Of a stretch of 64,000 bases of DNA, positions 1 to 6,673 are shown piece after piece (position 1 is the stretch's first letter; every line of letters begins with the position of its first letter). This stretch comes from an uncultured Alphaproteobacteria bacterium (GTDB lineage: Bacteria; Pseudomonadota; Alphaproteobacteria; Rhizobiales; Kaistiaceae): contig CAWAHE010000011.1 of assembly GCA_963781775.1 (NCBI GenBank), positions 130,312-194,311 of the forward strand, given 5' to 3'. Under the pieces are notes generated by a model. That model was not told where the DNA came from. It made no database searches and saw nothing but the letters and a program-made list of their open reading frames with translations. A program made the translations under genes and the position numbers.

Positions 1-776
1 GACGATGATCGCGCCCGAACACGGCCGCACGCCGACGGCGACGATCGCCGACCACGCCCGCGCCAGACTGGAGCGCAGCGGGATCGGGTTGCCCTGAGCC
101 GGACGGGCATGGCCGTGATGATCGTATGATCGTTGTGCTCGTGGTCGTGCGCATGGTCGTGATCATGGTGGGCATGGTCGTCGTGGGCGTGGTCGTCACC
201 AACACCGTGATGATGGTGGTGATGGTGACCGCCGCCGAACGTCTTTGCCCACAGAAGCCAGGCGCCGACCGCCGCGACCAGCGCGTAGCTCAGAATCTCG
301 AACCAGTCCGTCGCCGCGGTCATGGTGACGGCCGTGACGTGGAAGATCAGCGCCGCAACGCCGACGATGACAACCGCGCTGACCGCCTGAACGAAGGCCG
401 CCATGAACGACAGCGCGATGCCGCGCTTCACGGTTTCGCCGGACGACACCAGATAGGCGCTGATCACGGCCTTGCCGTGGCCGGGTCCGGCCGCATGAAA
501 GACACCATAGGCAAAGCTGAGGGCAAGCAGCAGCCACACCGCCCAGCCGTTCTGCTTGATATCGGTGAGCGCGTGGGTGAGGCCCTGATAGAATTCGCTC
601 TGGTAGTAGGCGATCTGCATGAAAAAGGGACGAAGCGGCCCGCCGAAGGCGCCCGGCCCCGGCGAATCGGGCGTGGCGATGCCAAACGGGCTGGCCGCAT
701 GGGCGCCACCGGCCACGGCAACCGCGACGAGGAAGGCGACGGCAAAAAGCGCCGCGCATTTGCGGGCGGCGCTCAC
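1..776 (-). pseudogene. NicO/RcnA-type nickel/cobalt transporter (COG2215-like). The 3' end lies beyond the window edge and the reading frame is interrupted inside the His-rich loop.
   Basis: I translated the minus strand from the GTG at 776, which overlaps the upstream stop at 773-775 as GTGA. That frame gives a hydrophobic N-terminus, FHAAGPGHGKAVISAYLV (codon phase of nt 500) and a GHHHHHHH..HDHDHAHDHEH tract (230-126). The conserved C-terminal ..AWSAIVAVGVRPCSGAIIV (60-1) is in another phase. That phase has stops at 193-195 and 163-165, so the frame switch must lie below 163. Confidence 0.8.
118..133. repeat. Perfect 8-bp tandem duplication, ATGATCGT x2 (coding strand ACGATCAT x2)
   Basis: Positions 118-125 and 126-133 are identical. 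Deleting one copy joins ..HDHEHNDH to HGHARPAQGN..VGVRPCSGA in a single frame. Confidence 0.9.
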
Positions 777-1432
777 GGGCAATCGACCGTAATCAGATTG
801 GCGAGGCCGGCCGCCGCATCCTGCAACTCGGGCGGCAGATCGTGCTGGTCGGCGGGAATCGCGGACAGCATGGCCATCGTCTGGGCCGTCAGCTCCTGCG
901 GCGGATGGTACGCGGCAGTGCAACCCGCCGGCGCCCCGTCGAGCGTCACCGGTGTGTCCTTGGGAAAGGTGAAGGCCACGAAATACTCGGGATCGAAGAC
1001 CTCGAGCGTCGCCTTGCCCTTGATCTTCACGGGCGCCTTCAGCGGCAGCGTGTAGAACAGCGTCAGCCGGCCGCCATGAAATTCGAGCCAGTATTCGGTC
1101 GGCGGCACGAAGGGAAATTTCTTCTTCCCCTCCCGCAGCCACGTGAAGAAGTCGTACTCCTTGAGCGAGTCGACGTTGACCTTGGCGAGCGGCGCGAGCT
1201 CGTCGTCGCTGAGTTTGCCGTCGCCATTCGCATCGAGGCCCTGAATGGCGAAAGCGGTGAACGCCTCGTCGAACTGCCAGATGTGACGGACGGCTGTGAC
1301 CTCGCCGGCCGCATCGAAGACGATCTCCGCGCGCGCATCGACGAAGACATGCGGGTGCGCCAGGGCCGGAGCCGACGCCACGACCGGCAGCGCGGCGGCC
1401 AGCGCCCATGCAGCGCGGCGAAGTGCGGTCAC
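773..1432 (-). CDS. DUF1007 family periplasmic protein, the usual partner of NicO-type Ni/Co transporters
   Basis: This is ORF 773..1651. A signal peptide (TALRRAAWALAAALPVVASAPALA) is followed by HPHVFVD. I chose the GTG at 1432, which is preceded by GGGAGA. An alternative ATG at 1516 overlaps the upstream stop as ATGA. The stop overlaps the nicO start as GTGA. Confidence 0.8.
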   Translation of the reverse strand: MTALRRAAWALAAALPVVASAPALAHPHVFVDARAEIVFDAAGEVTAVRHIWQFDEAFTAFAIQGLDANGDGKLSDDELAPLAKVNVDSLKEYDFFTWLREGKKKFPFVPPTEYWLEFHGGRLTLFYTLPLKAPVKIKGKATLEVFDPEYFVAFTFPKDTPVTLDGAPAGCTAAYHPPQELTAQTMAMLSAIPADQHDLPPELQDAAAGLANLITVDCP

Positions 1433-1512
1433 GACCCGTCTCCCATGCGCGGCATGGATTTCCGCCGCATTGGGGCCGATTCGCGGCGAATCCGCGTGGC
1501 AAAAGGACGCGT

Positions 1513-2880
1513 TCATGGCGAAGCCGCCATGCGCGCCTGCTTGTCGGCAAGCGCCTGCTCGATCTCGATAATCCAGTCGACCTCCTCGCCACGCGCAGCG
1601 CGCTTCTTGCGGATCAGCGCCAGATTGCGCGCCGTCGTCTCCGGCTCCCACACTTCGCGCACGATGGCGAGCGCCATCTCGGCATTTTCCTGCGCCGCAT
1701 CGCGATCACGGGCGAGGACCGCGATCTCGAGCAACGTCGCATAGTCCCAATAGTCGCCCGTATGATCCTCGCCTCCGCGCACGCGCTGGGTCGCCGCATA
1801 GCGGACCACAGCAGCCAGATCGCCAAAGGCAGGATCCTGCTTGTCCTCCATGTCCATGAGCGTCAGCGTATTGACTCCCGGATAGGGGTCGCGCCAGTCG
1901 GCCTCGAAGCCGGCGCGATAGGTTGCGAGCGCCCGCTTGAGCAGGCCGCGCGCCTCGAAACTGCGGCCGGCTTCGTCCGCGATCTGCCACTGGTCCTTGT
2001 AGATGCGCCCGAGCAGACCGTTGGTCTCGCTGCTCTGACCGAACTCCTTGATGACATCGGCGAGCACACGCTCGGCGTCCGCCGTGCGGCCGATGCGGTT
2101 GAGGGCGAAGCCGAACTGTTCACGCATCATGCGCGCCTGCTGCAATTCGCGCGGCATCCGCTCGTAGAGTGCGACCATCTCCGCGCATCCGGCCTTGCCG
2201 ACCGCGCGGAAGGACAGCATCAGATCGACGATGACTCCGGCCTCGACATTGCGGAGGTCGGCAAGATTGTGATCCGCTGCAACCGCCCTGACCGCGTCGA
2301 GGCCAAGCTTGCGCGCCTCGGCGAGCCGGGTCTTGTACCTCTCGGTGATCGCCACCCGATCGCGGAAGATGTCGGTCTTGACGTGGTCGACCTCGTGCCG
2401 CGGCATGCCATCGACGAGCTGAAACAGCGGGCTGTCGTCGTTGCCATCGGCGTGAGCACTGGCGAGACGGGCGGCGATGCGCTCGACATCGCCGTCGACG
2501 TCGGTGAGACCACCGGACGCATCCATGCGGTAGGGCGTGCCGCGCTGCGAGGCGACGTCGAACGGCAGCGCCGTGCCCTCGGCGAAGACGATAACCGTGC
2601 TGCGCGGCCTGAGCGCATGGCGGATGCCAAGTTCATAATAGACGTTGGGATTGGCGCCGGTGACATCGGCGACGGCGTAGTCGCACAGCATCAGCCGCTC
2701 GAACATCGGCTTGTGGATCGTGCCGCCGACCTGCTCCTGGTCGGCGCGGATCACGTCCATGTCGGCGGCGAGGACCGCCGGGGCGATGATGCGATCGTAA
2801 ACCGCGTCGAAGTCGATCTGCCGTCCGGTCCCGTCGGGCTTGCGTCCGAACGGCATCAGCACGAAGCAAAGTGGCTTCAC
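1513..2880 (-). CDS. TRAF-binding-domain (DUF4071) TPR protein with an N-terminal TIR/nucleoside 2-deoxyribosyltransferase-like domain; a bacterial homologue of the ASK1 regulatory region
   Basis: The ORF is 455 aa with a GTG start. The N-terminal 150 aa or so look like a Rossmann fold: CFVLMPFG strand, DVIRAD, CDYAVADVTGANPNVYYELG (Glu83). The remainder is helical repeats carrying GLLGRIYKDQW and DYWDYATLLEIAVL, motifs I recall from the ASK1 central regulatory region. Confidence 0.7.
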   Translation of the reverse strand: MKPLCFVLMPFGRKPDGTGRQIDFDAVYDRIIAPAVLAADMDVIRADQEQVGGTIHKPMFERLMLCDYAVADVTGANPNVYYELGIRHALRPRSTVIVFAEGTALPFDVASQRGTPYRMDASGGLTDVDGDVERIAARLASAHADGNDDSPLFQLVDGMPRHEVDHVKTDIFRDRVAITERYKTRLAEARKLGLDAVRAVAADHNLADLRNVEAGVIVDLMLSFRAVGKAGCAEMVALYERMPRELQQARMMREQFGFALNRIGRTADAERVLADVIKEFGQSSETNGLLGRIYKDQWQIADEAGRSFEARGLLKRALATYRAGFEADWRDPYPGVNTLTLMDMEDKQDPAFGDLAAVVRYAATQRVRGGEDHTGDYWDYATLLEIAVLARDRDAAQENAEMALAIVREVWEPETTARNLALIRKKRAARGEEVDWIIEIEQALADKQARMAASP

Positions 2881-2941
2881 GTTTTCGCTCTCCTGCCCGC
2901 CGCCGCGCCGACTTTACCAGCTTTGGCGGGCCGCGGGACGG

Positions 2942-4126
2942 TCAGCCGCCAAGGATCGCGCGAGCAAGGGAAATCAGCGCCCGATCGCGGCCGGGTGGGC
3001 CGATCAGCGACACGCCGACCGGCGCGCCCTTGACGGCGAGCAGCGGCAGCGAGATCTGCGGGAAACCGGCGTGGCCGGCAATCGACATCATCGCCACCGC
3101 ACGGCCGCGGAAATCCTCGAAGTCCTGTTCGCGCGAGGCAAGCAGCGGCGCGGCATCGGGCATCGTCGGCATCACGATGACCCGGTCGCTGCCCACGATC
3201 TCGGCAACCCGCGCGGCCGCCTTGCGGCGGAACACGACCGCGGCGTCATGCGCTTCCCTTGTGATCGCCTTCGATGCGGCAAAGCGCGTGACCACTGGCG
3301 GGTTCAGGAGCGGTTTGCGCGCCTCGATCCAGGGCCCGTGGCTTTGCCAGGCGTGATAGCCCTGGATCGTACGATAGGCGTCGTACCACTTGTCCAGTCC
3401 CTCCTCCGCGACAACGACGGTGCCATCCGAGGCGAGGTGACGGCCGATCCGCGCGAAGGCGGGTTCAAGCAAGGCCCGCTCGTTCTCGGCCGCAAAGAGC
3501 GCGCAGACATCCTCCGCTACGACCATCTTGCTGAGTGGTGGTCCGGCGACATCCTCGCCGAGCAGCACCGCGCCGACGCGCTCGTAGACATCGGCGGTGC
3601 GGGCGAACCAGCCGACGGTGTCATAGATGGCGGCGAGCGGCATGGTGCCGGAGATGTCGATGCGGCCAAAGGTCGGGCGCAGGCCGATGATGCCGCAGAA
3701 GGATGCCGGCCCGCGCACCGAGCCGCCGGTATCGCTGCCGAGCGCGAAATCGACCAGCCCCGCCGCCACCGCCGCCGCCGAACCCGACGAGGAGCCGCCG
3801 GGCACGCGATCCGGCGCCGCCGGATTGATCGGTGTGCCGTAATGCTCGTTGCGCCCGTCGATCGAAAACGCCAGTTCGGCGGTGTGGGTCTTGCCGACGA
3901 ACGTCGCGCCGGCATCGAGCAGCTTCGCCACACACGCGGCATGGGTGGTCGGCACGGGATCCTCGGCGGTCTTCTCCGGACTGCCGCAGCCGGTCGGATA
4001 ACCGGCGACGTCGTAGATGTCCTTGACCGCGAAGGTCAGCCCCGCGAGCGGGCCCGACGGCGCGTGCGCCACGGGTACGTCGGGATAATCGACGAAGGCG
4101 TGAACCGGATCGGAGGGGATGAGCAT
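2942..4126 (-). CDS. Amidase (amidase-signature family)
   Basis: The ORF is 394 aa and carries the AS motifs GGSSSGSAAAVAAG and GSDTGGSVRGPASFCG. Confidence 0.9.
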   Translation of the reverse strand: MLIPSDPVHAFVDYPDVPVAHAPSGPLAGLTFAVKDIYDVAGYPTGCGSPEKTAEDPVPTTHAACVAKLLDAGATFVGKTHTAELAFSIDGRNEHYGTPINPAAPDRVPGGSSSGSAAAVAAGLVDFALGSDTGGSVRGPASFCGIIGLRPTFGRIDISGTMPLAAIYDTVGWFARTADVYERVGAVLLGEDVAGPPLSKMVVAEDVCALFAAENERALLEPAFARIGRHLASDGTVVVAEEGLDKWYDAYRTIQGYHAWQSHGPWIEARKPLLNPPVVTRFAASKAITREAHDAAVVFRRKAAARVAEIVGSDRVIVMPTMPDAAPLLASREQDFEDFRGRAVAMMSIAGHAGFPQISLPLLAVKGAPVGVSLIGPPGRDRALISLARAILGG

Positions 4127-4135
4127 CGTGACTCC

Positions 4136-5722
4136 TCAAACTGCGATCGCGGCGCCATCCGACCGCGGATCGGACGCGCCGAACAGACGACCATCAGCGC
4201 GGCGGACGATGGCGTCGGCATGTCCAAGCGAATCGGAATGCCGCTCGGGCAGGACGACCGTGCCATGACCGGCGCGCCTGAGCGCCTCGACCACATCCGG
4301 GTCGAAGCCCGACTCCAGGGTCAGTTCGGCGTCCTCGTGGCCCCAGGTCCGCCCGAGCCGCCAGCGCGGCGCATCGATCGCCTCTCCGAGGTCCATGCCG
4401 AAGCAGGCATAGCGCGTGAACACCGCCGCCTGGAACTGCGGCTGGCCGTCGCCGCCCATCGAGCCATAGGGCATGACGCGGCCATCCTTGAATCGCGCCA
4501 GCGCCGGGTTGAGCGTGTGAAACGGCTTGCGGCCGGGGGCGAGCGGATTGGTCGCCTTGGGGTCGAGCGAGAAGCTGATGCCGCGGTTCTGCCAGACGAT
4601 GCCGGTTCGCGGCAGCACGACTCCCGAGCCCCACTCCCAGTAGAGCGACTGGATGAACGAGACGGCGAGACCGTTGCCGTCGACGGTGCTCATATGGATG
4701 GTGTCGGCGTCGGCATTGCCATCCCACGCACTGGCGCGCTTGCGGTCGATCGTGTCGGCCTCGGCGTCGAGCCACTCCGGCGTCAGGAAGCGCTTCACGT
4801 CGTCGCCGAAGGCGGGATCGGTGACTTCCGCATCGCGCACGGCGAAGGCGCGCTTGGTCGCTTCGATCAGGCCGTGGATGTGGTCGAAGCTTTCGCCGCG
4901 CTTCACGCCCAGCCGCTCGAACAGGCCGAGGATGATCAGCGAGGCCAACCCCTGGGTCGGCGGCGGCGTGTTGAAGAGCGTGCAGTCGGCGAGCGCCACC
5001 GACAATGGCGTCGTCAGCCGCGCTTCGTGCTTGCGCAGGTCCTCGCGGGTCACCGGAGAGCCGACTTCCTCGAGGTCGGCGGCGATCTCGGCAGCGACGT
5101 CGCCGCGATAGAAGTCGCCGTAGCCGGCGCGGGCGATCTGGTCGAGCGTGTCGGCGAGGCGCGGCTGCACCATCGGTGACCCGGCCTCGGGCGCATTGCC
5201 GTCGGCGAGGTAATGCGCGGCAAAACCCGGCACGTCCTTGAGGCTTTCGGCATTGTCGATGGTCTTTCGCCATTGGCACGGGCTGACCGGCACGCCCTCG
5301 CGCGCGTGGCGGATCGCCGCGCCCAACAAATCGGCCCGCGACATGCGGCCACCGAGCGCCGCCGCGGCCTCCGCCGCGAGATCCCAGCCCGACACCGCGC
5401 CGGCAACTGTCAGCGCCGCCAGCGGCCCGCGCTCGGGGATCGTGTCGTAGCCCTCCTTGGCGTAGCGGGCGATCGTCGCCAGCGACCCGGCGCCGCCGCA
5501 TGCGTCGATCGAGCGCGGCGGCCGGCCGGGCTCGGCGATGAGGAAGAAAGCATCGCCGCCGATGCCGTTCATCTGCGGATAGACCACGGCAATCGTGGCG
5601 GCCGCGGCAATCATCGCCTCGAGCGCATTGCCGCCTTCGCGCATCACATCGGCGGCAGCTTCCGCAGCCGCCTTGTGCGGCGCCACCGCCATCCCCCGCT
5701 CGCCGACAACCGTCTCGTTCAT
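4136..5722 (-). CDS. Gamma-glutamyltransferase family protein (YwrD-like)
   Basis: ORF 4136..5812, trimmed to the ATG at 5722 (MNETVV). Family blocks are GMAVAPH, VMREGGNALEA, NGIGGDAFFL and PYGSMGGDGQPQ. There is a 9-bp gap to the amidase gene. Confidence 0.85.
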   Translation of the reverse strand: MNETVVGERGMAVAPHKAAAEAAADVMREGGNALEAMIAAAATIAVVYPQMNGIGGDAFFLIAEPGRPPRSIDACGGAGSLATIARYAKEGYDTIPERGPLAALTVAGAVSGWDLAAEAAAALGGRMSRADLLGAAIRHAREGVPVSPCQWRKTIDNAESLKDVPGFAAHYLADGNAPEAGSPMVQPRLADTLDQIARAGYGDFYRGDVAAEIAADLEEVGSPVTREDLRKHEARLTTPLSVALADCTLFNTPPPTQGLASLIILGLFERLGVKRGESFDHIHGLIEATKRAFAVRDAEVTDPAFGDDVKRFLTPEWLDAEADTIDRKRASAWDGNADADTIHMSTVDGNGLAVSFIQSLYWEWGSGVVLPRTGIVWQNRGISFSLDPKATNPLAPGRKPFHTLNPALARFKDGRVMPYGSMGGDGQPQFQAAVFTRYACFGMDLGEAIDAPRWRLGRTWGHEDAELTLESGFDPDVVEALRRAGHGTVVLPERHSDSLGHADAIVRRADGRLFGASDPRSDGAAIAV

Positions 5723-5797
5723 CAAACGCCCCGCCCAGCTCTGCCTTCTTGACCGAGCGGTGGTTTTGCCGGTTCCGCGCGGTGTTGCCAATGCCCC

Positions 5798-5832: not shown

Positions 5833-6147
5833 ATGGATGAGGTCTTCAAGGCGCTTGCCGACCCGACGCGGCGCGAACTGCTCGACAGGCTGAGGGCCGA
5901 CAACGGCCAGACGCTGAACGATCTGTGCGCCCGGCTGGCGATGACCCGGCAAGCGGTGACGAAGCACCTCGCCATTCTGGAGGCGGCAAACCTCGTCGCC
6001 ACCGTCAAGAAGGGACGGGAGAAGCTGCACTACCTGAACCCGGCTCCGATCGGAGAGATCTACGACCGGTGGATCGGCAAATACGAAAAGGCTCGCATCG
6101 CGGCACTCGCCGACCTGAAGCGGGCTCTTGAAGAGAAAGACGAATAG
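5833..6147 (+). CDS. ArsR/SmtB family transcriptional regulator
   Basis: The ORF is 104 aa with a winged HTH: ALADPTRRELLDRL..LNDLCARLAMTRQAVTKHLAILEAANLV. Confidence 0.9.
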   Translation: MDEVFKALADPTRRELLDRLRADNGQTLNDLCARLAMTRQAVTKHLAILEAANLVATVKKGREKLHYLNPAPIGEIYDRWIGKYEKARIAALADLKRALEEKDE

Positions 6148-6199
6148 GGGCGCCCGAGAGCGCCCCCGCGCAAAATCACGGCACAGAAAGGAACAGCAA

Positions 6200-6673
6200 A
6201 TGAGCAGTCGATTTGTCTATGTCACCTATATTCGCACGACGCCGGCCAGGCTCTGGGAGGCGCTGCTGAAGCCGGAATTCACCCGCCAATATTTCTTCGG
6301 GGTCACGATGGATTCCGACTGGAAGGTCGGTTCCCCGTGGAAGATGACCCACCCGGACGGCACCGTCAGCGACGCCGGCGAGGTGATCGAGAGCGATCCC
6401 CCGAAACACCTGGTGCTGAAGTGGCGGAACGAATTTCCCAACCTCAAGCCGGAGGGCTTCACCCGCTGCACCTTCGACATCGCCGCGGAAGGCGATCTGA
6501 CCAAGCTGCAGGTCGTCCACGAGGCCGACATGGACAATTCCAAGACGATCGCGGCGGTCTCCGACGGCTGGCCGAAGATCCTGTCGGGCCTGAAGACCCT
6601 GCTCGAATCCGGCGCCGTCCTGCCGATGGGCAAAGGCGACGCGGAACGGGCCAAGGCAAAGCAGACTGCCTGA
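6200..6673 (+). CDS. SRPBCC domain protein (Aha1/activator of Hsp90 ATPase homologue-like)
   Basis: ORF 6128..6673, trimmed to the ATG at 6200 (preceded by GAAAGGAA). It carries YIRTTPARLWEALLKPEFTRQYFFG and is the usual downstream partner of this ArsR subtype. Confidence 0.8.
   Translation: MSSRFVYVTYIRTTPARLWEALLKPEFTRQYFFGVTMDSDWKVGSPWKMTHPDGTVSDAGEVIESDPPKHLVLKWRNEFPNLKPEGFTRCTFDIAAEGDLTKLQVVHEADMDNSKTIAAVSDGWPKILSGLKTLLESGAVLPMGKGDAERAKAKQTA

What the first reader, a model, noticed from the sequence alone, without database searches (positions are those of the whole stretch)
1513..2880. Stand-alone bacterial homologue of the ASK1/MAP3K5 regulatory module: TIR/deoxyribosyltransferase-like domain fused to a DUF4071 TPR array
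Residues 1 to about 150 show a pattern typical of nucleoside 2-deoxyribosyltransferase/TIR-like N-glycosidase folds. It runs from a CFVLMPFG strand, through a helix and DVIRAD, to CDYAVADVTG..NVYYELG with a conserved-looking Glu83.

Residues of about 190-455 are helical repeats with GLLGRIYKD and DYWDYATLLE. I recognise these motifs from the TRAF-binding/central regulatory region of animal ASK kinases (Pfam DUF4071).

There is no kinase, NTPase or other effector domain. Comparative genomics has linked such Rossmann-TPR pairs to nucleotide-centred conflict and signalling systems. I know of no characterised bacterial member.

It could be a ligand-gated NAD+/nucleotide-cleaving single-gene immunity or stress module. 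It may also resemble the evolutionary precursor of the ASK signalosome sensor.
Basis: partly seen in the sequence, partly recalled or inferred. Interest (0 to 1): 0.75.

Follow-up and report, generated by a model that had tools for sequence, protein, structure and literature searches.

The report
Orphan ThsI-like glycosidase-TPR sensor gene
This gene encodes a bacterial relative of the sensor half of the human stress kinase ASK1: a nucleotide-cleaving domain fused to a helical-repeat sensor. It belongs to a family already predicted by comparative genomics and recently shown to be the effector of a TIR-based anti-phage system, but this copy has no TIR partner gene nearby.

Summary
Window 1513-2880 (minus strand) is a 455-aa ORF. 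It matches Pfam MAP3K_TRAF_bd/DUF4071 (E 5e-35) and TPR-S (E 1e-24), and human ASK1 in the PDB (E 2e-7). Foldseek's best hits for the whole model are ASK1 structures.

The N-terminal 150 residues model as a Rossmann-like fold. The closest structures are the N-glycosidases MilB and DNPH1, followed by TIR domains. Glu83 lies in a YELG motif that aligns with the catalytic Glu of Rcl/DNPH1.

The family is not uncharacterised:
- Pfam's TPR-S model and, by my recollection, Burroughs & Aravind 2020 already tie this TPR scaffold to NAD-derived signals and to ASK.
- Two preprints characterise members. B. cereus BcTpr loses NADase activity and defence with N82A or E86A, and it binds cADPR. ThsI is the cADPR-triggered effector of type VIII Thoeris.
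- A Pseudomonas plasmid homologue (BLASTP E 8e-41) sits next to a TIR that is 76% identical to a validated type VIII ThsB.

This copy, and about 76 of 80 close relatives from other species, has no TIR gene nearby. It sits in clade-specific housekeeping synteny and diverges at the same rate as its neighbours.

Verdict: an orphan member of a known family. It is probably a signal-gated NAD+/nucleotide N-glycosidase whose trigger is unknown. Interest is moderate.

The parts
1513..2880 (-). Complete CDS, 455 aa, GTG start, TGA stop: ThsI/BcTpr-like protein (an N-glycosidase-like domain plus a TPR-S array)
   Evidence: ORF list. Pfam PF13281 and PF20308. BLASTP E 8e-41 to the ThsI orthologue on plasmid pA7J1. 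Codon-position GC of 0.71/0.44/0.84 is similar to neighbouring genes.
2889..2894 (-). Shine-Dalgarno-like AGGAGA, 9 nt upstream of the GTG start
   Evidence: Read directly from the sequence.
2431..2880 (-). Residues 1-150: Rossmann-like MilB/DNPH1/TIR-class (DrHyd) domain
   Evidence: AF2 model with pLDDT 83.8. Foldseek hits: MilB 4ohr E 3.6e-5, TIR-STING 9lmq E 1.6e-4, DNPH1 E 4e-4. PADLOC TIR effector model E 4e-11. Sub-threshold profile hit to Rcl that aligns the YELG motif.
2632..2634 (-). Codon of Glu83, the predicted catalytic nucleophile or acid, in the YELG motif
   Evidence: Translation check. Invariant in 56 close homologues and in all 7 sequences of the alignment that includes TIR-linked homologues. 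Aligns with the YELG Glu of Rcl/DNPH1. Corresponds by motif spacing to BcTpr E86, whose Ala mutant loses NADase activity and defence.
2644..2652 (-). Codons of Asn77-Pro78-Asn79, the predicted phosphate-binding loop
   Evidence: N77 and N79 are invariant in A1 and A6. The N-P-N-x3-E spacing is the same as BcTpr N80-P81-N82...E86, and N82A is inactive.
2374..2427 (-). Residues 152-169: low-confidence linker between the two domains
   Evidence: pLDDT below 50 for residues 152-169.
1516..2385 (-). Residues 166-455: all-helical TPR-S array of about 15 helices, homologous to the TPR part of the ASK1 central regulatory region. Conserved motifs: SETxGxxGRIYKD, GFE, PGxN, YWDYAT.
   Evidence: DSSP on the model. 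Pfam TPR-S E 1.2e-24. ASK1 alignment over residues 188-415. Foldseek 5ulm E 6.5e-7, TM 0.56 normalised to the target. Motifs invariant across orphan and TIR-linked homologues.
773..1516 (-). Downstream same-strand DUF1007 gene. It is context only and not a functional partner. Its possible ATG overlaps the stop codon of the target gene (ATGA).
   Evidence: Pfam PF06226 E 3.5e-60. Sequence read. Synteny is confined to the Bauldia-like clade.
2942..4126 (-). Upstream same-strand amidase gene, 61 nt from the target. It is context only.
   Evidence: Pfam PF01425 E 3.5e-67. Conserved next to the target only in the Bauldia-like clade.

Best explanation
The gene encodes an orphan member of the ThsI/BcTpr family. 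This is the 'CMP-hydrolase-like plus TPR' effector of type VIII Thoeris, and it is also the bacterial counterpart of the ASK1 N-terminal regulatory module.

Proposed mechanism:
1. The N-terminal MilB/DNPH1-like Rossmann-type domain is an N-glycosidase. Glu83 in the YELG motif is the catalytic residue, and the Asn77-Pro78-Asn79 loop holds the substrate phosphate.
2. The C-terminal TPR-S array keeps the enzyme quiescent and acts as the receptor for an NAD+-derived nucleotide. In characterised relatives that nucleotide is canonical cADPR.
3. Ligand binding switches on hydrolysis of NAD+ (shown for BcTpr) or of another nucleotide (hypothesised for ThsI). This depletes the pool and arrests growth.

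What is shown here: the fold, the homology, conservation of the catalytic and sensor motifs, and the absence of a TIR gene in cis.

What is inferred from relatives: the enzymatic activity, the cADPR gating, and the physiological output.

Because no TIR is encoded within 64 kb, the activating signal must come from one of three sources: a TIR or cyclase encoded elsewhere in the genome, an invader, or the protein's own basal activity.
For: Fold and homology to ASK1:
- Pfam PF13281 and PF20308.
- ASK1 is the only sequence hit in the PDB and the top structural hit.

N-terminal domain as a glycosidase:
- The N-domain model matches MilB, DNPH1 and TIR-STING.
- The YELG Glu aligns with the same motif in Rcl/DNPH1.

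Conservation:
- M9, R45, D47, D72, N77, N79, Y82, E83, G85, R87, H88, T95 and Y117, together with the TPR-S motifs, are invariant across orphan and TIR-linked homologues.

Link to validated systems:
- A Pseudomonas plasmid homologue (BLASTP E 8e-41) is followed 6 nt later by a TIR gene.
- That TIR is 75.6% identical (E 6e-78) to the validated type VIII ThsB TIR listed in the preprint's Table S1.
- A Rhizobium plasmid homologue (50% identity) sits with DUF4231/SLATT and TIR genes.
- P0241 (50% identity) sits next to TIR_2 and nSTAND1 genes.
- Family members occur fused to TIR_2 or to SLATT domains.

Literature:
- BcTpr N82A and E86A abolish NADase activity and defence, and BcTpr binds cADPR with Kd 1.9 uM.
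- Cells carrying type VIII Thoeris stop growing when given cADPR, but not 2'cADPR or 3'cADPR.
Against: - No TIR gene in the 64-kb window. PADLOC on 54 ORFs gave no TIR model. tblastn with nine TIR queries gave nothing below E 0.1. A ThsB-type HMM on six-frame ORFs found nothing.
- About 76 of 80 close homologues from other species also lack a TIR within 10 kb.
- Only a few of the 137 flanking genes match any defence model.
- The gene lies in clade-specific housekeeping synteny: GGT, amidase, target, DUF1007, NicO.
- It has diverged at the same rate as those neighbours: 67-79% identity against 61-84%. That is unusual for a mobile defence gene.
- BcTpr alone did not protect against phage.
- The substrate of ThsI has not been determined.
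- Both key experimental sources are preprints.
- I could not obtain the BcTpr or ThsI sequences. Their equivalence to this protein rests on architecture, motif numbering and the neighbouring ThsB.
Confidence: 0.55

Rival explanations
1. Domesticated housekeeping or stress enzyme. The orphan clade has left immunity and now works as a regulated nucleotide or NAD+ N-glycosidase in normal physiology, for example clearing a damaged or modified nucleotide as DNPH1 and MilB do, or adjusting the NAD+ pool. The TPR array would sense an endogenous metabolite or protein.
For: - Stable chromosomal position among metabolic genes, with synteny conserved across the Bauldia-like clade.
- Two other clade-specific syntenies, both made of housekeeping genes: Ivy with peptidase M43, and CMD with EutA.
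- Divergence equal to that of neighbouring genes, and codon-position GC like that of neighbouring genes.
- No defence-island signal around it.
- At least 591 species genomes carry a close relative containing IHKPM[FY]ER or ANPNVYYE, the two motif patterns used for the scan.
- The nearest structural relatives, MilB and DNPH1, are metabolic enzymes.
Against: - The nearest relatives outside the clade (about 50% identity) lie in TIR, SLATT or nSTAND contexts on plasmids.
- The TPR-S sensor motifs shared with TIR-linked members are fully retained, which suggests the same ligand.
- About 60% identity across several phyla fits horizontal spread better than an ancient housekeeping role.
- No conserved metabolic partner gene exists across clades.
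Confidence: 0.22
2. Autonomous single-gene defence. The TPR array directly recognises a phage protein or a phage-induced cue, as the repeat domains of Avs and DSR2 do, and releases the N-terminal NADase without any TIR-made messenger.
For: - 'Core Tpr alone' was the commonest arrangement (29 of 78) in the BcTpr survey.
- BcTpr alone lowers NAD+ and makes a cADPR isomer.
- Repeat-domain sensing of phage proteins by NADase effectors is established for DSR2 (abstract).
Against: - BcTpr alone gave no phage protection.
- There is no defence-island context and no sign of mobility or rapid evolution.
- The sensor surface is highly conserved (66% mean column identity) rather than diversifying, as would be expected for a direct phage-protein receptor.
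Confidence: 0.13
3. Non-catalytic nucleotide sensor or scaffold, as in ASK1. The N-terminal domain only binds a ligand, and the protein signals through protein-protein contacts with an unlinked partner.
For: - About 30% of diverse family members have lost Glu83 (replaced by Q, A, T, R and others) while D72, G85, R87 and Y117 remain invariant.
- ASK1 has His at the position that aligns with Glu83, although that alignment is weak.
- Some family members carry separate effector domains such as TIR_2 or SLATT.
Against: - In this protein and its whole clade, Glu83, N77, N79 and H88 are invariant.
- The equivalent Glu and Asn residues are needed for catalysis in BcTpr.
- The protein has no output domain and no conserved neighbour that could serve as one.
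Confidence: 0.08

Closest known systems
ThsI, effector of type VIII Thoeris (Yirmiya et al., bioRxiv 10.64898/2025.12.03.692087)
   Same: - Two-domain architecture: a 'CMP hydrolase' (MilB-like) domain plus the TPR that Aravind's group predicted.
- Full-length homology (BLASTP E 8e-41) to the protein encoded next to a TIR that is 75.6% identical to a validated type VIII ThsB.
- All catalytic-site and TPR-S motifs are shared.
   Different: - No ThsB/TIR gene in the 64-kb window.
- About 45 residues longer, with an extra helical hairpin near residues 206-240 and a longer C-terminus.
- Only 25-28% identical to the short plasmid forms.
- Chromosomal, in housekeeping synteny.
- The sequences of the ThsI proteins actually tested were not available to me.
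BcTpr of the Bacillus cereus BcTir/BcTpr system (Liu et al., bioRxiv 10.1101/2023.05.26.542521)
   Same: - An N-terminal MilB-like glycosidase plus a C-terminal TPR.
- The predicted substrate-contact residues I10/M11, N80-P81-N82 and E86 correspond by motif and spacing to L8/M9, N77-P78-N79 and E83 here.
- The paper reports that stand-alone 'core Tpr' genes are common in Proteobacteria.
   Different: - BcTpr is 415 aa and works together with an adjacent TIR-like BcTir.
- Its activity (NADase, production of a cADPR isomer) has not been tested for this protein.
N-terminal regulatory module of animal ASK1/MAP3K5 (thioredoxin-binding domain plus the TPR of the central regulatory region; PDB 8QGY, 5ULM)
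   Same: - It is the only PDB sequence hit (E 2.3e-7) and the top structural hit. The alignment spans both domains, about 480 columns.
- Shared motifs: GRIYKD, F-E, G-[IV]-N and YW.
- The Pfam MAP3K_TRAF_bd model covers residues 80-432.
   Different: - ASK1 continues into PH, kinase and SAM domains. This protein ends after the TPR array.
- In a weak alignment, ASK1 has His where this protein has Glu83 (FYHLG against YYELG), so the ASK1 domain is presumably non-catalytic.
- The ASK1 structural paper describes this domain as thioredoxin-like and as a TRX1-binding site.
MilB / DNPH1 (Rcl) / nucleoside 2-deoxyribosyltransferase superfamily ('DrHyd')
   Same: - Best structural matches of the N-terminal domain: MilB E 3.6e-5, TM about 0.56; DNPH1 with 22-25% identity.
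- The segment from the IH..M helix through the ADVT strand to YELG aligns with IHEQ...AEVT...YELG of Rcl.
   Different: - The sequence match is below significance (profile against PDB E 0.15), and no Pfam Nuc_deoxyrib_tr hit appears at E <= 1.
- Those enzymes are small stand-alone metabolic proteins without a TPR sensor.
DUF4062 ('NIR') TIR-like NADases of Swarozyc/Avs2 and human TEP1 (2026 preprints)
   Same: This is an analogous case: a TIR/NDT-like domain with a catalytic Glu that is shared between bacterial immunity and a human protein.
   Different: It is a different domain family. Neither preprint mentions DUF4071, ASK1 or MAP3K.

Membership tests
Pfam MAP3K_TRAF_bd (PF13281, ex-DUF4071) | Whole-protein score above the curated gathering cut-off | tested here: met
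   121.7 bits against a cut-off of 24.1, E 5e-35, residues 80-432 matched to model positions 1-355 of 371.
Pfam TPR-S (PF20308) | Whole-protein score above the curated gathering cut-off | tested here: met
   87.3 bits against a cut-off of 27.6, E 1.2e-24, residues 233-342.
DrHyd / nucleoside 2-deoxyribosyltransferase-like N-glycosidases (MilB, DNPH1, NDT) | Three-layer alpha/beta Rossmann-like fold matching solved members | tested here: met
   The N-domain model (pLDDT 83.8) has MilB 4ohr/4jem (E 3.6e-5 to 9e-5, TM 0.50-0.56) and DNPH1 (E 4e-4 and weaker) among its top PDB hits.
DrHyd / nucleoside 2-deoxyribosyltransferase-like N-glycosidases (MilB, DNPH1, NDT) | Catalytic Glu in the [YF]-E-L-G motif that follows the strand ending in [DE]-V-T | tested here: met
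   YYE83LG aligns with GYELG of Rcl/DNPH1. Invariant in 56 close homologues and present in 51 of 72 diverse ones.
DrHyd / nucleoside 2-deoxyribosyltransferase-like N-glycosidases (MilB, DNPH1, NDT) | Statistically significant sequence match to a curated family model or to a solved member | tested here: not met
   No Pfam Nuc_deoxyrib_tr or DRHyd model at E <= 1. No NCBIfam hit. Profile against PDB gives Rcl at only E 0.15-0.4. The assignment is therefore at fold and motif level only.
DrHyd / nucleoside 2-deoxyribosyltransferase-like N-glycosidases (MilB, DNPH1, NDT) | N-glycosidic bond cleavage activity | not testable with these tools
   Needs a biochemical assay. Reported for the relative BcTpr.
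TIR domain | Match to curated TIR models | tested here: inconclusive
   No Pfam TIR, TIR_2 or ThsB_TIR hit. However, PADLOC model PDLC00733 'Effector TIR' matches at E 4e-11, and Foldseek finds the TIR of TIR-STING at E 1.6e-4, ranked below MilB.
Type VIII Thoeris system | Effector with a CMP-hydrolase-like domain plus TPR, homologous to ThsI | tested here: met
   The architecture matches. BLASTP E 8e-41 to the protein encoded beside a TIR that is 75.6% identical to a validated type VIII ThsB.
Type VIII Thoeris system | Adjacent thsB gene encoding a signal-producing TIR protein | tested here: not met
   No TIR anywhere in the 64-kb window by PADLOC, tblastn or a ThsB-type HMM on six-frame ORFs. 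The locus is therefore not filed as a type VIII Thoeris system, only as an orphan ThsI-like gene.
Type VIII Thoeris system | cADPR-dependent activation and phage defence | not testable with these tools
   Experimental. Shown for the Yersinia and Pseudomonas-scaffold systems.
ASK (MAP3K5/6/15) kinases | N-terminal TBD-like domain plus TPR region homologous to ASK1 | tested here: met
   phmmer E 2.3e-7. Foldseek 8qgy E 3.4e-9 over 483 columns and 5ulm E 6.5e-7.
ASK (MAP3K5/6/15) kinases | PH domain, Ser/Thr kinase domain and C-terminal SAM domain | tested here: not met
   The protein ends at residue 455 after the TPR array, and there are no further Pfam hits. It is a homologue of the ASK regulatory module, not an ASK kinase.

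The most novel reading that the evidence does not exclude
The orphan clade is tightly conserved (at least 56% identity across Alphaproteobacteria, Acidobacteriota, Verrucomicrobiota, Actinomycetota and others), is inherited with its housekeeping neighbours, and has no TIR partner. It could be a receptor-enzyme for canonical cADPR or a related NAD+-derived nucleotide that has been co-opted from phage defence into endogenous bacterial stress signalling.

Its TPR-S pocket motifs (GRIYKD, GFE, GxN, YW) persist in human ASK1. The same pocket in ASK1 would then be the long-sought direct receptor linking SARM1/TIR-1-made cADPR to the ASK1/NSY-1 - JNK/p38 cascade. If so, this small soluble bacterial protein would be a tractable structural model for that interaction.
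Probability: 0.15. Interest if true: 0.85.

Novelty: new member of a known kind. Interest (0 to 1): 0.4.

Why it matters
On its own the locus is an ordinary, already annotatable member of a very large family. NCBI names its relatives 'TRAFs-binding domain-containing protein'. The family has 565 clusters at 50% identity with E <= 1e-30 and 4,312 with E <= 1e-10.

Its value is as an example of the TIR-less, chromosomally stable branch of the ThsI/BcTpr family, which nobody appears to have tested. Three things would follow from studying it:
- Finding what activates an effector whose signal generator is not encoded beside it would show whether cADPR-type signalling in bacteria reaches beyond phage defence.
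- A ligand-bound structure of such a protein would directly test whether the homologous ASK1 module binds cADPR. A 2026 Drosophila study left that receptor unidentified, 'possibly Ask1 itself' (PMC13455253).
- The ASK1 structural paper I read (PMC10972558) describes the homologous domain only as thioredoxin-like and does not mention bacterial relatives or a Rossmann-type fold. The link between the two fields is therefore under-used.

Tried and rejected
Searches that gave nothing or failed:
- NCBIfam returned no hit.
- The second homologue search, with the N-terminal domain alone, returned only truncated copies of the same family and no new architectures.
- The search for related loci with the diverse alignment A2 failed because it had no stretch conserved enough. 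It was rerun with A1.
- Burroughs et al. 2015 (NAR) and Burroughs & Aravind 2020 (J Bacteriol) are not held in the library. What I say about them comes from papers that cite them and from memory.
- The Thoeris preprint supplements give TIR sequences and IMG gene ids but no ThsI sequences. I used the ThsB sequences as a bridge instead.
- Model coordinates are not exposed, so I could not measure whether the TPR-S motifs face the Glu83 pocket.

Ideas considered and rejected:
- A conserved operon partner. All-against-all clustering of flanking ORFs in 80 species loci found no neighbour family in more than 24 loci, and all of those were clade-specific.
- A functional link to the downstream DUF1007/NicO metal-transport pair or to the upstream amidase/GGT genes. 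The ATGA overlap and a called fusion protein (P0095) prompted this, but the synteny is confined to the Bauldia-like clade.
- A defence-island location. Only a few of the 137 flanking genes, and none of the window ORFs, give a convincing defence hit. The mad, Csa3 and CARF hits were not checked protein by protein and are probably generic regulator or ATPase matches.

Weak or uninformative results:
- The promoter and terminator scan found nothing on the minus strand between the amidase gene, the target and DUF1007. This is weak evidence for co-transcription.
- Several context look-ups of distant homologues landed on contigs of only 2-5 kb.
Full report
**1. The observation**

The window holds a 455-aa ORF at 1513..2880 on the minus strand, with a GTG start. 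An AGGAGA sits 9 nt upstream of the start. Codon-position GC (0.71/0.44/0.84) is close to that of the neighbouring genes, so there is no compositional sign of recent import.

**2. The C-terminal region**

- Pfam gives MAP3K_TRAF_bd/DUF4071 at E 5e-35 (121.7 bits against a cut-off of 24.1) and TPR-S at E 1.2e-24.
- A phmmer search of all PDB sequences returns only human ASK1: 8qgy at E 2.3e-7 and 5ulm at E 1.7e-6. The alignments preserve GRIYKD, F-E, G-[IV]-N and YW.
- An AlphaFold2 model built on 56 homologues has mean pLDDT 86.5 and is all-helical from residue 166 onward.
- Its best Foldseek PDB hits are the ASK1 cryo-EM structure, aligned over about 480 columns and therefore both domains, and the ASK1 central regulatory region.
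- The Pfam DUF4071 model begins at residue 80, inside the N-terminal domain. The homology to ASK1 therefore extends beyond the TPR array.

**3. The N-terminal domain**

- A separate model of residues 1-155 (pLDDT 83.8, pTM 0.82) is a Rossmann-like alpha/beta domain.
- Its best PDB matches are MilB CMP N-glycosidase (E 3.6e-5), the TIR of TIR-STING (E 1.6e-4), and many DNPH1/Rcl entries at 22-25% identity.
- A profile of the domain finds Rcl/DNPH1 only at E 0.15-0.4. The alignment nevertheless places IHKPM...ADVT...YYELG on IHEQ...AEVT...GYELG, so Glu83 falls on the Glu of the enzyme's YELG motif. From the DNPH1 literature I know that Glu to be the catalytic nucleophile.
- PADLOC's 'Effector TIR' model PDLC00733 matches residues 25-119 at E 4e-11.
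- No Pfam TIR or deoxyribosyltransferase model matches.
- The domain therefore belongs to the TIR/DrHyd class at the level of fold and motif, nearest to the MilB/DNPH1 branch.

**4. Conservation**

- The family is very large. There are 5,969 hits among the candidates scored in the 5.8-billion-protein set. Among representatives of 50%-identity clusters there are 565 at E <= 1e-30 and 4,312 at E <= 1e-10.
- Sources name its members 'TRAFs-binding domain-containing protein' or 'DUF4071 domain-containing protein'.
- In 56 homologues of 59-79% identity, Glu83 and a dense set of polar residues around it are invariant: R45, D47, E49, H56, K57, D72, T74, N77, N79, R87 and H88.
- In 72 diverse representatives (32-51% identity), Glu83 is kept in 51. 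It is Q, A, T, R or another residue in the rest. D72, G85, R87 and Y117 stay invariant or nearly so.
- The family thus contains both catalytically competent-looking members and probable sensor-only members. This protein is of the first kind.

**5. What is already known**

- The Pfam TPR-S family ('Tetratricopeptide Repeats-Sensor') encodes the idea that this TPR is a nucleotide-signal sensor.
- Yirmiya et al. (bioRxiv 10.64898/2025.12.03.692087) define type VIII Thoeris. On phage infection, a ThsB TIR makes canonical cADPR. [quoted passage not shown] Cells carrying the system stop growing when given cADPR but not 2'cADPR or 3'cADPR. The system protects E. coli against T2 or T6.
- Liu et al. 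(bioRxiv 10.1101/2023.05.26.542521) studied B. cereus BcTir/BcTpr. BcTpr has a MilB-like N-terminus (residues 1-189) and a TPR C-terminus. N82A and E86A abolish NAD+ depletion and defence. BcTpr binds cADPR with Kd 1.9 uM. Stand-alone 'core Tpr' genes were the commonest arrangement (29 of 78), mostly in Proteobacteria.
- The BcTpr residues I10/M11, N80-P81-N82 and E86 have the same spacing as L8/M9, N77-P78-N79 and E83 here.
- By my own recollection, the abstract of Burroughs & Aravind 2020 (J Bacteriol 202:e00365-20) says the TPR scaffold was incorporated into the animal ASK signalosome. I could not read that paper. Kaur et al. 2021 cite it, among others, for the bacterial origin of ASK signalosome components.

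**6. A direct link between this protein and the tested systems**

- tblastn against plasmids finds 69 records with a match.
- On Pseudomonas plasmid pA7J1, the homologue is followed 6 nt later by a 134-aa TIR gene. That TIR is 75.6% identical (E 6e-78) to the TIR of the validated type VIII system from a Pseudomonas scaffold, and 40% identical to the Yersinia one. Both reference sequences come from the preprint's Table S1.
- The pA7J1 homologue aligns with this protein over its full length at BLASTP E 8e-41.
- Acinetobacter and Lacticaseibacillus plasmid homologues also have adjacent TIR genes.
- A Rhizobium plasmid homologue at 50% identity is followed by DUF4231/SLATT and TIR genes. This matches the reported co-occurrence of ThsH and ThsI in one operon.
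- Another 50%-identity relative sits next to TIR_2 and nSTAND1 genes on a plasmid-like contig.
- A 43%-identity relative is followed by a patatin gene.
- Family members also occur fused to TIR_2, SLATT or ParA-like domains.
- In a 7-sequence alignment of this orphan protein with six partner-linked homologues (five TIR-linked, one patatin-linked), the catalytic-site residues and the TPR-S motifs are invariant. The motifs are E285-T286, G288, G291, K295, Y321, G324-F325, G335, N337, W378 and A381-T382.

**7. What is different about this copy**

- The 64-kb window has no TIR. PADLOC on 54 ORFs gives no TIR model. tblastn with nine TIR queries gives nothing below E 0.1. A ThsB-type HMM on all six-frame ORFs finds nothing.
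- The gene lies between gamma-glutamyltranspeptidase and amidase genes upstream, and DUF1007 and a His-rich NicO transporter downstream.
- That order is conserved in Bauldia and related MAGs. There the protein's identity to this one (67-79%) tracks that of the neighbours (61-84%).
- A scan of one genome per species found at least 591 genomes with a close relative. They span Alphaproteobacteria, Acidobacteriota, Verrucomicrobiota, Actinomycetota, a deltaproteobacterium and Candidatus Aquilonibacter, at 56-79% identity.
- Clustering the flanking ORFs of the best 80 loci shows no neighbour family in more than 24 loci. The recurrent neighbours are clade-specific housekeeping genes: amidase, GGT and DUF1007; Ivy and peptidase M43; CMD and EutA.
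- Only a few of the 137 immediate neighbours match any PADLOC model.
- Only one locus (L036) has clear TIR-like ORFs within 10 kb, and three more have marginal ones.
- The orphan state is therefore typical of this clade. Because its nearest outgroups are TIR-linked, the clade most likely descends from a Thoeris-type ancestor. This last step is inference.

**8. Mechanism**

I rate the explanations as follows.

- **Best supported (0.55): signal-gated N-glycosidase.** The TPR-S array, possibly together with the N-domain, binds an NAD+-derived nucleotide of the cADPR type. The Glu83 site then hydrolyses NAD+ or another nucleotide. The signal source is not encoded in cis.
- **Rival (0.22): domesticated housekeeping or stress enzyme.**
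- **Rival (0.13): autonomous single-gene defence that senses a phage cue directly.**
- **Rival (0.08): non-catalytic sensor, as in ASK1.**

The fold, homology, motif conservation and genomic context are shown here. Catalysis, ligand and output are inferred from the two preprints.

**9. Verdict**

The claim of novelty is not: this architecture, its ASK link and its role in TIR signalling have been described, and family members have been tested. This locus is a new member of a known kind.

It is of moderate interest mainly for two reasons:
- The TIR-less, vertically stable branch is untested.
- The conserved TPR-S pocket offers a route to ask whether ASK1 is the missing cADPR receptor. [quoted passage not shown])' (PMC13455253).

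Noticed in passing
window 1513-1516 and 773-1516 (minus strand): The TGA stop of the target gene overlaps an in-frame ATG of the downstream DUF1007 ORF (ATGA). A GTG near position 1432 would give a more typical signal peptide, so the true start is uncertain. A relative (P0095, 770 aa) is called as a single DUF4071+DUF1007 fusion protein.
   Followed up: partly
window 1-779 (minus strand): A partial NicO-type nickel/cobalt transporter with a long His-rich loop (GGGHHHHHHHGVGDDHAHDDHAHHDHDHAHDHEHNDH). It runs off the window start and forms the usual DUF1007-NicO pair. ORF 126-1055 on the plus strand is its antisense shadow.
   Followed up: partly
alignment A2 (family representatives P0241-P0387): About 30% of diverse family members have replaced the catalytic Glu83 with Q, A, T, R, L or another residue, while D72, G85, R87 and Y117 stay invariant. 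These are likely ligand-binding but non-catalytic variants, like ASK1, which has His at the position that aligns (weakly) with Glu83.
   Followed up: partly
L086 (Rhizobium sophoriradicis plasmid pCC511_4) 459-8121: A compact island holds a ThsI-like gene (50% identity to the target), a DUF4231/SLATT gene and a small TIR gene. Divergently transcribed from these are a carbohydrate kinase, a 467-aa TIR protein, an HhH-GPD N-glycosylase, a QueC-like 7-cyano-7-deazaguanine synthase and another TIR. This may be a composite Thoeris VII/VIII locus with extra nucleotide-modifying genes.
   Followed up: no
L087 6001-13338 (Logan contig SRR23272323_3967): A 50%-identity homologue is followed by a 476-aa TIR_2 protein and a 1662-aa nSTAND1 NTPase, on a contig that carries RepA and type IV secretion coupling protein genes. 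This is a three-gene arrangement distinct from the two-gene type VIII Thoeris.
   Followed up: no
L084 (Acinetobacter baumannii plasmid) 3576-5791: The ThsI-like gene is flanked on both sides by TIR genes (136 aa and 182 aa). A BrnT/BrnA toxin-antitoxin pair and a PIN-like protein lie next to them.
   Followed up: no
loci L003-L082 (genome-contig scan): Close relatives are about 60% identical across six or more phyla, but only 67-79% identical within the Bauldia-like group. This plateau suggests horizontal spread of a strongly constrained gene among soil and freshwater bacteria.
   Followed up: partly
window 5833-6673 (plus strand): An ArsR-family HTH regulator followed by an AHSA1/SRPBCC-domain protein. 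The same pair appears next to the NicO gene, in a different position, in the Bauldia sp. genome (L001). It may be the metal-responsive regulator of the DUF1007-NicO transporter.
   Followed up: no
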